Virus record (IMG/VR): IMGVR_UViG_3300010373_001364
Span: 48,116-112,115 of that record
Source of the DNA: a virus
Taxonomy: Duplodnaviria > Heunggongvirae > Uroviricota > Caudoviricetes
Direction: 5' to 3' (one strand)
DNA: 64,000 bases
The notes beneath the pieces were generated by a model. The model was not told the DNA's origin and did no database searches. It saw only the letters and a program-made list of their open reading frames with translations. Shown here one piece after another: positions 18,025-18,352 of this stretch. Position 1 is the first letter of the stretch. Every line of letters starts with the position of its first letter. Position numbers and translations under genes: made by a program.

Positions 18025-18050
18025 GTCTTATCTAGAGCGAGATGCAAAAG

Positions 18051-18074
18051 AAAAGGGCGGCTTTGCCGCCCTTT
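18051..18074. terminator. bidirectional intrinsic terminator
   Basis: AAAAGGGCGGC-TTT-GCCGCCCTTT. Confidence 0.75.
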
Positions 18075-18077
18075 AGT

Positions 18078-18289
18078 TGCCGGGGGAGGGGTCGAACCTC
18101 CAATCTCCGCAAAATAACACTGGTGTGCTGCTGTACACTATGCCACTAGGAATCGAACCTAGAACAGCCGTCTGAGTCACCTCAGAACTCGCCCCGTGTC
18201 AGAAGGCATCAAGCTGTCGCCATCGATGGTCGGGAGTTGAACCCGCTCCTCCAGTGGACCTTCGGTGTGTAACCCTTACACCGCCCGGC
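18078..18289 (-). ncRNA. tRNA-related RNA with three T-arms inside one terminal stem
   Basis: Minus strand: 5' GCCGGG pairs with 3' CCCGGC+A; T-arms CGGG-TTCAACT-CCCG, CTAGG-TTCGATT-CCTAG, GGAGG-TTCGACC-CCTCC. Confidence 0.6.
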
Positions 18290-18300
18290 TTTTCCAATAG

Positions 18301-18335
18301 AAAAAGGGAGCCGCCTTTTGTCAAGCTCCCTTTTT
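18301..18335. terminator. bidirectional hairpin terminator
   Basis: AAAAAGGGAGC...GCTCCCTTTTT. Confidence 0.6.
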
Positions 18336-18352
18336 GTGGTATAATTATAGGG

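What the first reader, a model, noticed from the sequence alone, without database searches (positions are those of the whole stretch)
18078..18289. 212-nt RNA with three T-arms nested inside one acceptor-like stem
Seen on the minus strand: 5' GCCGGG pairs with 3' CCCGGC-A directly after a canonical T-arm. Two further T-arms lie inside (CGGG-TTCAACT-CCCG and CTAGG-TTCGATT-CCTAG), the second within a sub-unit closed by ATGCC/GGCAT that has a TCTGAG-GTGA-CTCAGA hairpin. There is also a CCATCGATGG palindrome. No complete canonical tRNA can be built, and the element sits between two terminators as its own unit. Inference: a tRNA-within-tRNA mimic, for example a decoy for anticodon nucleases or tRNA-sensing defences, or a T-loop-module scaffold RNA. 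A decayed tRNA array would not be expected to keep the outer stem.
Basis: partly seen in the sequence, partly recalled or inferred. Interest (0 to 1): 0.7.

Follow-up and report, generated by a model that had tools for sequence, protein, structure and literature searches.

The report
tRNA-framed phage RNA with three T-arms
This is a real, conserved gene for a small non-coding RNA of an uncultured giant soil phage: the top half of a tRNA carries, where the anticodon loop should be, a folded 139-base module with two more tRNA-type hairpins. It matches no catalogued RNA family, and its job is unknown.

Summary
On the minus strand, 18077-18290 has three canonical T-arm hairpins inside an acceptor-type stem, between two terminators. 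ARAGORN and Rfam 15 call nothing there.

Using homologues of the neighbouring 2H phosphoesterase gene, I found three relatives at the same locus.
- One (L023) keeps the whole design, with compensatory changes in the acceptor stem, the third T-arm and the closing helix P1.
- Two (L026, L029) keep only the inner 139-152-nt module, without the tRNA frame.
- Seven other syntenic loci lack the element, and one more (L028) may hold a relic.

The module is a five-way junction: P1, T-arm 1, a P3 domain holding P4 and P5, T-arm 2, and P6. Across four sequences 96.8% of cells pair, and 11 pairs change on both sides. A model built from three sequences finds the fourth at E 5e-18. The module is 67-76% identical between relatives, against 35-56% at third codon positions.

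The two framed copies share no anticodon loop. So this is not a decoding tRNA, not an intron-bearing tRNA, not a decayed tRNA array, and not tmRNA or YrlA.

Best reading: a stable tRNA-framed RNA whose module acts as a tRNA mimic. That function is inferred, not shown. This scan has noted "tRNA-framed" phage RNAs on other DNA before; this cargo is new.

The parts
18296..18330 (-). Terminator hairpin of the upstream gene (GGGAGC 18325-18330 pairs with GCTCCC 18306-18311, then a T-run). Its loop holds TTGACA (18319-18324). Seventeen nt further on lies a weak -10-like TCTATT (18296-18301), about 6-7 nt before the RNA start. This is a candidate promoter of the RNA.
   Evidence: Read from the sequence. 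The same TTGACA-N17-T(C/T)TA(T/A)T-N7 layout stands before the element in L023 and L029. The promoter role is inferred: the consensus scan did not call it.
18284..18290 (-). 5' strand of the acceptor-type stem (A1 + GCCGGG).
   Evidence: It pairs with 18078-18084. Six pairs are Watson-Crick and 1:72 is an A.A mismatch. L023 has G.A at 1:72 and U3-A70 in place of C3-G70.
18267..18281 (-). D-arm: GUGU stem, 7-nt loop AAGGGUU with the GG, then ACAC.
   Evidence: Four pairs in both framed copies. One pair is U-A here and U.G in L023.
18259..18265 (-). 5' strand (CCGAAGG) of the 7-bp stalk that stands where the anticodon stem would be.
   Evidence: It is identical in this window and in L023, while the partner strand differs at 5 of 7 positions yet still pairs. 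It resembles the Rsr-contact motif GNCGAAN0-1G of YrlA (PMC4201824). That is a lead only.
18118..18256 (-). The conserved 139-nt module: a five-way junction closed by P1 (18251-18256 pairs with 18118-18123).
   Evidence: Alignments A3 and A4, covariation counts, and model R1. The module is present without the tRNA frame in L026 and L029.
18231..18245 (-). T-arm 1: CGGG, 7-nt loop UUCAACU, CCCG.
   Evidence: The stem is invariant in all 4 sequences. The loop is UU(C/A)(A/G)ACU.
18164..18217 (-). P3 domain: helix ACAGC/GCUGU encloses the P4 hairpin (18190-18208; 4 bp plus the 11-nt loop UUNNNACAYRK) and the variable P5 hairpin (18171-18186).
   Evidence: P4 has 3 of 4 pairs changed on both sides. 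P3 has one such pair. P5 varies in length from 3 to 8 bp. RNAalifold on the hand-made alignment recovers P3, P4 and P5.
18146..18162 (-). T-arm 2: CUAGG, 7-nt loop UUCGAUU, CCUAG.
   Evidence: The stem is invariant in all 4 sequences. The loop is UUC(G/A)A(U/C)U.
18125..18138 (-). P6 hairpin GUGU-ACAGCA-GCAC, one nt before the 3' strand of P1.
   Evidence: The stem is invariant. The loop is ACAGYA in three sequences and CGUA in L026.
18102..18117 (-). 3' side of the stalk: internal-loop side UUAU (18114-18117), stalk 3' strand UUUGCGG (18107-18113), and the 5-nt variable loop AGAUU (18102-18106).
   Evidence: Both framed copies have the same geometry: a 2 x 4 internal loop, a 7-bp stalk and AGAUU.
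18085..18101 (-). T-arm 3 of the frame: GGAGG, loop UUCGACC, CCUCC.
   Evidence: L023 has GUAGG/CCUAC, a compensatory G-C to U-A change. Together with the acceptor 3' strand it is identical over 24 nt to a phage tRNA-Asn(GUU) in L002.
18077..18084 (-). 3' strand of the acceptor-type stem (CCCGGCA) plus the discriminator A (18077). No CCA is encoded.
18052..18074 (-). Intrinsic terminator of the RNA: a 10-bp stem with a 3-nt loop, then a T-run.

Best explanation
Window 18077-18290 (minus strand) is a gene for a stable, non-decoding, tRNA-framed small RNA of about 214 nt.

Shown:
1. The frame is the top half of a tRNA. It has an acceptor-type stem, a D-arm with GG, a 5-nt variable loop, a canonical T-arm and discriminator A. 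Its T-arm and acceptor are identical to those of a phage tRNA-Asn gene.
2. Where a tRNA has its anticodon loop, the helix simply runs on. A 7-bp stalk, a 2 x 4 internal loop and the 6-bp helix P1 lead into a 139-nt five-way junction. That junction has two more canonical T-arm hairpins, a P3/P4/P5 domain and the P6 hairpin.
3. The module is conserved under purifying selection. It is supported by compensatory changes, and it also exists without the frame in two related phages.
4. No anticodon loop is shared by the two framed copies.

Inferred:
- The RNA is made as its own transcript. A weak sigma-70-like promoter sits in the upstream terminator, and the RNA has its own terminator.
- The frame serves as a handle that lets host tRNA enzymes (RNase P, 3' trimming, CCA addition, T-loop modification) finish and stabilise the ends.
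- The module is the working part. By displaying extra T-arm or elbow surfaces it binds, titrates or recruits a protein that recognises that part of tRNAs. It would thus be a tRNA mimic or decoy, or the RNA partner of an RNP, possibly tied to RNA damage and repair, given the 2H phosphoesterase gene 53 nt downstream.
For: Homologues:
- They were reached through relatives of the 2H protein and their contigs.
- L023 has frame plus module. L026 and L029 have the module only.

Frame:
- C3-G70 becomes U3-A70, and G50-C64 becomes U50-A64.
- The D-stem and the stalk geometry are kept.

Module:
- 96.8% of 124 cells pair.
- 11 pairs change on both sides, against 5.5 +/- 1.4 in shuffles and at most 2 after sliding the partners.
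- With three sequences the figures are 9, against 3.0.
- P1 changes on both sides at 5 of 6 pairs.

Other tests:
- Model R1, built without L026, finds L026 at 93.8 bits, E 5e-18.
- Module identity is 67-76%, against 35-56% at third codon positions of the adjacent gene.
- G.U pairs in P1, P3, P4, P6 and the stalk fit only the minus strand.
- No ORF of 50 aa or more overlaps the element.
- The T-arm density is far above chance.
- The 24-nt 3' end is identical to tRNA-Asn(GUU) of L002.
- With the insert cut out by hand, ARAGORN accepts the frame as a tRNA for 2 of 294 cut pairs, at 100 and 103.
- The neighbouring gene is a 2H phosphoesterase / Acb1-like protein.
Against: - Only four sequences are known, and only two of them carry the frame. 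Both T-arm stems and P6 never vary, so they add no covariation.
- P3 has one compensatory pair plus end mismatches. P2 is only 2-3 bp and competes with an extension of T1.
- The comparative fold is 9-21 kcal/mol above the MFE of each module. The whole RNA is no more stable than shuffles (z = -0.44).
- There is no expression data, and the promoter is weak and inferred.
- The element is missing from 7 of 12 syntenic loci, so it is dispensable.
- No partner protein was identified. TROVE, DUF2828, vWA, RtcB, RNA ligase and CCA-adding enzyme are all absent from the 176 kb held, which is about 35% of the genome.
- Position 8 is C rather than U, and pair 1:72 is mismatched. So even tRNA-type processing is unproven.
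Confidence: 0.5

Rival explanations
1. It is an interrupted tRNA-Asn gene. The 139-nt module would be a tRNA-shaped intron in the anticodon loop, removed by host tRNA-end enzymes or a nuclease. A ligase would then rejoin the halves, with the neighbouring 2H phosphoesterase healing the ends. This is the kind of intron suspected in Lak megaphages.
For: - The frame's T-arm and acceptor equal those of a phage tRNA-Asn.
- The insert sits exactly at the anticodon-loop position.
- One hand-made splice gives ARAGORN tRNA-Asn(GTT) at 103.
- The module also lives on its own in relatives, as a mobile insert might.
- A 2H enzyme is encoded next door.
- Lak phages have tRNA introns that may themselves fold as tRNAs (PMC6784885).
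Against: - The two framed copies share no anticodon loop. Cutting at P1 leaves 6-nt loops, UC+UUAU here and AG+UCCA in L023. There is no U33 and no common anticodon.
- The 'stem' is 7 bp with a mismatch.
- ARAGORN's intron mode finds nothing at its default threshold.
- No group I intron or other ribozyme match.
- No RtcB or RNA ligase in the 176 kb held.
- No relative carries an uninterrupted tRNA at this locus.
Confidence: 0.1
2. It is a Y-RNA-like RNA. The stalk carrying CCGAAGG would bind a Ro60/Rsr-type ring protein of the phage or its host. The T-arm module would be the tRNA-like effector domain, as in YrlA, here capped by a tRNA top.
For: - CCGAAGG is invariant on the 5' strand of the stalk, while the 3' strand changed at 5 of 7 positions.
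- In L023 the context GCCGAAG fits the Rsr-contact motif GNCGAAN0-1G, and Ro60 mainly reads the 5' strand (PMC4201824).
- YrlA also pairs a protein-binding stem with a T-arm-bearing tRNA mimic and sits next to RNA-repair genes.
- L026 has a 7-bp outer stalk plus an internal loop plus P1, without the tRNA top.
Against: - The Rfam YrlA model does not hit the element. Its only weak hits are in the tRNA cluster.
- No TROVE, DUF2828 or vWA protein in the 176 kb held.
- The motif is missing from the two module-only relatives, and its first G is A in this window.
- Seven conserved bases between two close relatives are expected by chance in about one case in five.
- The RNA ends lie in the acceptor stem, not in the stalk.
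Confidence: 0.1
3. It acts in cis. It would be a tRNA-like processing or punctuation signal, or a leader, for the 2H phosphoesterase and ribonucleotide reductase genes downstream, rather than a trans-acting RNA.
For: - In all four cases it lies directly upstream of the 2H gene, in the same orientation.
- tRNA-like 't-elements' mark transcript ends in plant mitochondria (PMC1920247, seen only as a title and abstract).
Against: - It has its own terminator before the 2H gene. The same terminator and the same upstream motif CTAGATAAG stand before the 2H gene where the element is absent or present.
- I saw no alternative pairing with the terminator that is conserved in all four.
- A punctuation signal would not need a conserved five-way junction.
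- It is absent from 7 of 12 syntenic loci.
Confidence: 0.08
4. It is a decayed tRNA array or pseudogene cluster with no function. The outer stem would be a leftover of one broken tRNA.
For: - The T-arm spacing of 68-77 nt is like that of tandem tRNAs.
- Pattern scans and model R1 pick up tandem tRNAs weakly.
- Presence at the locus is patchy.
Against: - The conserved and covarying helices P1, P3 and P4 are not tRNA helices.
- Identity is far above that of third codon positions.
- There are compensatory changes in the frame.
- No inner cloverleaf can be drawn in any of the four sequences.
Confidence: 0.03
5. It is a short tmRNA-like RNA that is charged and enters stalled ribosomes.
For: It has an acceptor stem plus T-arm with a long helix in place of the anticodon arm, and discriminator A, as in the tRNA-like domain of tmRNA.
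Against: - There is no G3.U70: the pair is C-G here and U-A in L023.
- No conserved open frame or resume codon. The only AUG frame here is 4 codons long and is absent in L023.
- ARAGORN's tmRNA mode and the Rfam tmRNA families find nothing.
- Two relatives lack the tRNA-like domain altogether.
Confidence: 0.02

Closest known systems
Phage T4 species 1 and species 2 RNAs (rnaC 139 nt, rnaD 119 nt)
   Same: - They are small, stable, non-decoding phage RNAs of unknown function.
- rnaC has a canonical T-arm near its 3' end (record annotation and sequence).
- They mix tRNA-type end features with a non-tRNA body.
   Different: - There is no sequence or structure homology. Model R1 gives 13.6 bits, on the T-arm only.
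- The T4 RNAs lie in the tRNA cluster and are co-transcribed with tRNAs. This RNA is a separate unit about 16 kb from the phage's tRNA cluster.
- It has three T-arms and a full D-arm.
YrlA / bacterial and mycobacteriophage Y RNAs with Ro60 (Rsr) (Rfam RF02553; Chen et al. 2014, PMC4201824)
   Same: - A tRNA mimic with a canonical T-arm and D-arm is joined to a stem that carries a short conserved purine-rich motif. Here the motif is CCGAAGG; in YrlA it is GNCGAAN0-1G.
- Both are encoded next to RNA-repair-type genes.
   Different: - In YrlA the RNA ends lie in the protein-binding stem and the acceptor is loop-closed. Here the ends are in the acceptor and the stem is closed by a large module.
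- There is no RF02553 match and no Ro60-like gene in the DNA held.
- This RNA has two extra T-arm hairpins.
tRNA genes with tRNA-like introns in Lak megaphages (Devoto et al. 2019, PMC6784885)
   Same: - Both occur in huge phages.
- An insert in the anticodon region of a tRNA-type gene itself carries tRNA-like hairpins.
   Different: - The Lak cases are called tRNAs with an identifiable anticodon once the insert is removed.
- Here no anticodon loop is conserved. The insert is 139 nt with its own covarying fold, and it occurs free-standing in relatives.
tmRNA (SsrA) tRNA-like domain
   Same: An acceptor stem and T-arm frame a long helix that leads to a large inserted domain.
   Different: - There is no G3.U70, no tag reading frame and no pseudoknot series.
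- A normal D-arm is present.
- It is not detected by ARAGORN or Rfam.
Engineered 'tRNA scaffold' for recombinant RNA (for example PMC3753655)
   Same: The design is the same: cargo RNA replaces the anticodon loop of a tRNA, so that the cell processes and protects it like a tRNA.
   Different: That is a laboratory construct. Here the arrangement is natural and conserved in two phages, and the scaffolding role is only inferred.

Membership tests
tRNA (Rfam RF00005) | Detected by tRNA finders, with a score at or above the gathering threshold (29 bits) | tested here: not met
   ARAGORN finds nothing, even with introns allowed. Rfam gives a 13.6-bit partial match.
tRNA (Rfam RF00005) | Acceptor stem, D-arm with GG, and a T-arm with a UUCRANN loop, in canonical order and spacing | tested here: met
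   Exceptions: pair 1:72 is mismatched and position 8 is C.
tRNA (Rfam RF00005) | A 5-bp anticodon stem with a 7-nt loop, U33 and an anticodon | tested here: not met
   A 7-bp stalk runs on into a 2 x 4 internal loop and P1. The two framed copies share no loop sequence.
Intron-bearing tRNA (group I intron, or a Lak-phage-type insert) | Removal of the insert restores a canonical tRNA in every homologue | tested here: not met
   Only 2 of 294 hand-made splices of this copy pass ARAGORN, and they use a weak 6-bp stem. L023 gives no canonical loop.
Intron-bearing tRNA (group I intron, or a Lak-phage-type insert) | A recognisable self-splicing or self-cleaving ribozyme in the insert | tested here: not met
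   No Rfam intron or ribozyme family at E up to 10 here, or up to 5 in the homologous loci. At 139 nt the insert is below the size of known group I introns (own knowledge).
tmRNA | G3.U70 in the acceptor stem (alanine identity) | tested here: not met
   The pair is C3-G70 here and U3-A70 in L023.
tmRNA | A conserved tag reading frame with a stop codon | tested here: not met
   No frame is shared between the four sequences (alignment). ARAGORN's tmRNA mode is negative.
YrlA / Y RNA | A match to the YrlA covariance model (69 bits) | tested here: not met
   There is no hit at the element. The weak hits (at most 22.6 bits) lie only in the tRNA cluster.
YrlA / Y RNA | A Ro60/TROVE gene in the same genome or locus | tested here: inconclusive
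   There is no TROVE, DUF2828 or vWA hit in the 176 kb held. That is only about 35% of the genome, and the host is unknown.
YrlA / Y RNA | The 5'-strand motif GNCGAAN0-1G in the terminal stem | tested here: inconclusive
   GCCGAAG is present in L023 and ACCGAAG here, on the 5' strand of the stalk. It is absent in the two module-only relatives, and the stem is internal, not terminal.
T4 species 1 RNA (rnaC) | Homology to rnaC | tested here: not met
   Model R1 scores 13.6 bits, on the T-arm only. There is no BLAST match to any phage record.

The most novel reading that the evidence does not exclude
Giant soil phages may use a natural 'tRNA scaffold'. A self-contained T-loop-rich RNA module can live on its own or be mounted in the anticodon position of a disarmed tRNA-Asn. 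In that case the cell's tRNA machinery would mature and protect it. The three-elbow RNA would then act as a multivalent tRNA mimic. It could soak up a tRNA-targeting defence or tRNA-binding enzyme. Alternatively it could dock, through the CCGAAGG stalk, onto a Ro60-like ring protein as a new permuted kind of Y RNA.
Probability: 0.2. Interest if true: 0.8.

Novelty: new variant of a known kind. Interest (0 to 1): 0.58.

Why it matters
Phage small RNAs that look like tRNAs but do not decode have been known since the T4 species 1 and 2 RNAs. They have never been explained.

This case adds three things:
- It gives a clean natural example of modular design: the same folded cargo occurs with and without a tRNA frame, at the same locus in related phages.
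- It defines a cargo with two further canonical T-arms, which points to a partner that reads the T-arm or elbow of tRNAs.
- It lies beside a 2H phosphoesterase gene, in a phage that also carries suppressor tRNAs.

If the mimic or decoy reading is right, it would be a new RNA-based move in the contest over tRNAs between phages and bacteria. If the scaffold reading is right, nature anticipated a trick that RNA engineers use.

The family is small and function is unproven, so the finding is a well-founded lead, not a result.

Tried and rejected
Searches that found nothing:
- BLAST of the region against 50,697 phage records gave no match.
- Exact 21-24-nt probes of the inner T-arms in IMG/VR gave none. 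The outer T-arm probe hit only an ordinary tRNA-Asn in L002.
- Synteny through 15 IMG/VR relatives of the 2H protein showed no element upstream of any.
- The upstream 291-aa protein has no relatives in IMG/VR.
- The nearest complete huge phage, LR756511.1, has no element next to its 2H gene or anywhere else.
- A two-T-arm pattern scan of IMG/VR and of 241 million metagenome records returned 26 loci. All were ordinary tandem tRNAs.
- Two other motif patterns, run in IMG/VR and in the GTDB genomes, gave no match.
- Model R1 on 15 further phage records gave only weak hits, of which the best (23 bits) fall in records with tandem tRNA arrays.
- Rfam at a permissive threshold, on this locus and on the three homologous loci, gave nothing relevant.

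Readings considered and dropped:
- Group I intron: no match, and the insert is too small.
- BHB intron: there is no bulge-helix-bulge, and the internal loop is 2 x 4.
- attP/attB remnant of integration into tRNA-Asn: relatives share the locus, and the fold is conserved.
- T-box-like binding of a tRNA 3' end: the U of UGGN is not conserved.
- The 'stem plus ACAGCA handle' family noted elsewhere in this scan: here ACAGCA sits in a hairpin loop on the 3' side and is not kept in L026.

Inconclusive or not possible:
- A tree of the 2H proteins was too poorly resolved to tell loss of the element from gain.
- The contigs behind L023, L026 and L029 could not be searched whole.
Full report
**What is there**

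Read on the minus strand, 18077-18290 lies between two intrinsic-terminator hairpins.
- The upstream one is 18306-18330 plus a T-run. The downstream one is 18052-18074 plus a T-run.
- No ORF of 50 aa or more overlaps the stretch.
- The genes on either side run the same way. A 291-aa ORF with no Pfam match lies upstream. A 2H phosphoesterase (2_5_RNA_ligase2 E 7.5e-12; Acb1 E 2e-9) starts 53 nt after the RNA's end, followed by ribonucleotide reductase.
- The record is a 176-kb piece, about 35% complete, of an uncultured huge phage. Its nearest catalogued relative is the 595-kb LR756511.1.

**Checking the observation**

All the listed features are present.
- Hairpins of the type 'stem of at least 4 pairs closed by G-C plus a TTCRANN loop' occur 8 times in the window, against 0.7 in shuffles.
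  - Four lie in the tRNA cluster at 268-2188 and three lie in this element.
  - One is a chance hit inside a long ORF.
- ARAGORN finds no tRNA or tmRNA, even with introns allowed.
- Rfam 15 gives nothing beyond a 13.6-bit partial tRNA match and terminator look-alikes.
- The whole RNA is not unusually stable: z = -0.44.

**The outer part is a tRNA top**

With the A at 18290 as position 1, the sequence gives the following:
- a 7-position acceptor stem, with six Watson-Crick pairs and a mismatched 1:72;
- two linker bases, then a 4-bp D-stem with a 7-nt loop holding GG, then one more linker;
- a 7-bp helix, CCGAAGG with UUUGCGG;
- a 5-nt variable loop, AGAUU;
- a canonical T-arm and discriminator A.

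The last 24 nt are identical to a bona fide tRNA-Asn(GUU) of another phage contig. So the frame very probably descends from a phage tRNA-Asn gene.

When I cut the middle out by hand, ARAGORN accepted 2 of 294 cut pairs as tRNAs, at scores 100 and 103 and with a poor anticodon stem.

**Relatives**

DNA searches and IMG/VR synteny found nothing. The big protein database held many close relatives of the 2H protein, at 55-77% identity. I fetched their contigs.

Gene order is conserved: SbcC/SMC-like gene, small genes, 2H, then ribonucleotide reductase. Among 12 distinct syntenic loci with DNA:
- This window and L023 (2715-2936) carry frame plus insert.
- L026 (1060-1211) and L029 (1290-1437) carry only the insert, closed by its own helix and followed directly by a terminator.
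- L028 may hold a relic: 15.7 bits, E 0.24.
- Seven loci have a spacer too short to hold the element.
- None has an ordinary tRNA there.

**The frame is kept by selection**

Between this window and L023:
- C3-G70 becomes U3-A70, and G50-C64 in the T-stem becomes U50-A64.
- One D-stem pair goes from U-A to U.G.
- The stalk keeps 7 positions with one mismatch in each copy, although its 3' strand differs at 5 of 7 bases.
- The internal loop is 2 x 4 nt in both.

The loop letters differ: UC and UUAU here, AG and UCCA in L023. No U33 or common anticodon can be placed. So the RNA cannot be a decoding tRNA, spliced or not.

**The inner module**

A segment-wise alignment of the four sequences gives these parts:
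- P1, 6-7 bp. Examples are CACUGG/CCAGUG, UGUAGA/UCUGCA and UCACAGA/UCUGUGA. In L026 it is UUAUGG/CUAUAA, inside a further 7-bp helix.
- T-arm 1, with an invariant stem.
- P3, ACAGC/GCUGU, which is GUAGC/GCUAU in L023.
- P4, which sits inside P3. It has 4 bp (UGCC/GGCG, CGCU/AGCG, CACC/GGUG, AGCC/GGCU) and an 11-nt loop, UUNNNACAYRK.
- P5, also inside P3, of variable length.
- T-arm 2, also with an invariant stem.
- P6, one base before the 3' strand of P1.
- A tentative 2-bp contact between the base after T-arm 1 and the base after T-arm 2. It covaries (CA/UG, UG/CA, GG/CC) but competes with an extension of T-arm 1.

The counts support this fold.
- With three sequences, 97.8% of cells pair and 9 pairs change on both sides, against 3.0 +/- 1.4 in shuffles and at most 1 when the partners are slid.
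- With four sequences aligned to the model, 96.8% pair and 11 pairs (17 cells) change on both sides, against 5.5 +/- 1.4 in shuffles and at most 2 when slid.
- That second alignment was fitted to the model, which favours it.
- Model R1, built without L026, finds L026 at 93.8 bits, E 5e-18.
- RNAalifold on the hand-made alignment recovers P1, T1, P3 with P4 and P5, T2 and P6.
- Module identity between relatives is 67-76%. Third codon positions of the adjacent gene are only 35-56% identical.
- Several conserved G.U pairs fix the strand as minus.

Weak points:
- The T-arm stems and P6 never vary.
- P3 rests on one compensatory pair.
- The comparative fold lies 9-21 kcal/mol above each MFE.

**How common it is**

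- There is one copy in the 176 kb held.
- There is none in LR756511.1 or in 14 other phage records.
- There is none in IMG/VR, the JGI metagenome records or the GTDB genomes by three motif patterns. The two-T-arm pattern returned only tandem tRNAs.
- The family is rare, or confined to data reachable only through the protein route.

**What it is not**

| Reading | Why it fails |
|---|---|
| Decayed tRNA array | The conserved helices are not tRNA helices, and the sequence is under selection |
| tmRNA | No G3.U70, no shared reading frame, and two members lack the tRNA-like domain |
| Group I or other ribozyme intron | No Rfam match |
| Protein-dependent intron | Splicing would give no usable anticodon loop; no RtcB or RNA ligase in the DNA held |
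| YrlA member | No model hit; no TROVE, DUF2828 or vWA gene in the DNA held |

One YrlA-related lead remains. The invariant 5' strand of the stalk (GCCGAAG in L023, ACCGAAG here) resembles the Rsr-contact motif GNCGAAN0-1G. Ro60 reads mainly the 5' strand (PMC4201824). With two close sequences this is weak, and the motif is absent from the module-only forms.

**How it most likely works**

Shown: a conserved, structured, non-coding unit with a tRNA top and a T-arm-rich cargo, and a cargo that is separable from its frame.

Inferred:
- It is transcribed from its own weak promoter. TTGACA sits in the loop of the upstream terminator, then 17 nt, then T(C/T)TA(T/A)T, then 7 nt to the first base. This layout is shared by the window, L023 and L029. 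Transcription ends at the terminator.
- The frame gives tRNA-type end maturation and stability. No CCA is encoded, so it would have to be added.
- The module binds something that recognises T-arms or tRNA elbows.
- Because no arm shows a conserved anticodon-type loop, a decoy for anticodon nucleases is unlikely. Targets that read the T-loop, elbow or acceptor remain possible, as does an RNP role with an RNA-repair flavour, given the 2H enzyme next door.

I put about 0.85 on 'a real, selected, non-decoding tRNA-framed RNA'. I put about 0.25-0.3 on the mimic or decoy mechanism.

**Comparison with what is known**

- The nearest published analogues are the T4 species 1 and 2 RNAs, which are annotated as small stable RNAs. 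rnaC has a T-arm near its 3' end, but there is no homology to R1.
- Other analogues are YrlA, the tmRNA tRNA-like domain, and the tRNA-like introns of Lak megaphages.
- The arrangement copies the engineered 'tRNA scaffold' idea.
- Earlier notes of this scan describe 'tRNA-framed structured RNAs' in other phages. One is a fold that is either mounted on a tRNA frame or free (e1-3437064). Others are e1-1689172, e1-1611808 and e1-1876267.
- So the kind has been seen before in this scan on other DNA. Neither a look-up by sequence among earlier notes nor one among related stretches returned this cargo.

**Verdict**

This is a new variant of a known kind (phage tRNA-like small RNAs), of moderate to good interest, limited by the small family and the lack of any functional evidence.

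Noticed in passing
window 18318-18345 (+ strand): A near-perfect extended -10 sigma-70 promoter lies on the opposite strand: TTGTCA, 16 nt, TGGTATAAT (11 of 12 matches). It shares the loop of the upstream terminator and points away from the RNA, antisense to the 291-aa ORF. Its two boxes (ATTATACCA and TTGACAA on the minus strand) are conserved in L023, L029 and, slightly altered, in L024, which has no element.
   Followed up: partly
window 1827-1975 (+ strand): This is a second tRNA-framed RNA in the same phage, at the edge of the tRNA cluster. It has the acceptor GGGGUG/CACCCC, a canonical T-arm and discriminator A, with about 100 nt of unrelated cargo where the D and anticodon arms would be. 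Model R1 does not match it, so the cargo is different.
   Followed up: partly
window 18025-18040 (-), and the same place in L023 and L026: The motif CTAGATAAG (CTAGATAGG in L023) lies 2-3 nt before the ATG of the 2H gene, which has no Shine-Dalgarno sequence. It is conserved across relatives. It may be a phage-specific promoter or a start signal.
   Followed up: no
L024/L025, L030, L031, L058 (relatives): The ribonucleotide reductase genes next to the 2H gene carry inteins in several relatives. Pfam Intein_splicing hits occur in the alpha or beta subunit. In L031 the SMC/SbcC-like gene carries Hint/LAGLIDADG domains. The copies in this window appear intein-free (968 and 336 aa).
   Followed up: no
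L028:1400-1470: At the same locus, one relative has a different short element with a single T-arm-like hairpin (CAGG-TTCGATT-CCTG) after a CAACC/GGTTG hairpin. Model R1 scores it at 15.7 bits (E 0.24). It may be a relic of the module or an unrelated small RNA.
   Followed up: partly
window 268-561 and 1980-2188 (+): The tRNA cluster holds two CUA (amber-reading) tRNAs, a tRNA-Val(AAC), and one tRNA whose anticodon ARAGORN cannot assign. Earlier notes of the scan cover the amber-gated genes beside them.
   Followed up: no
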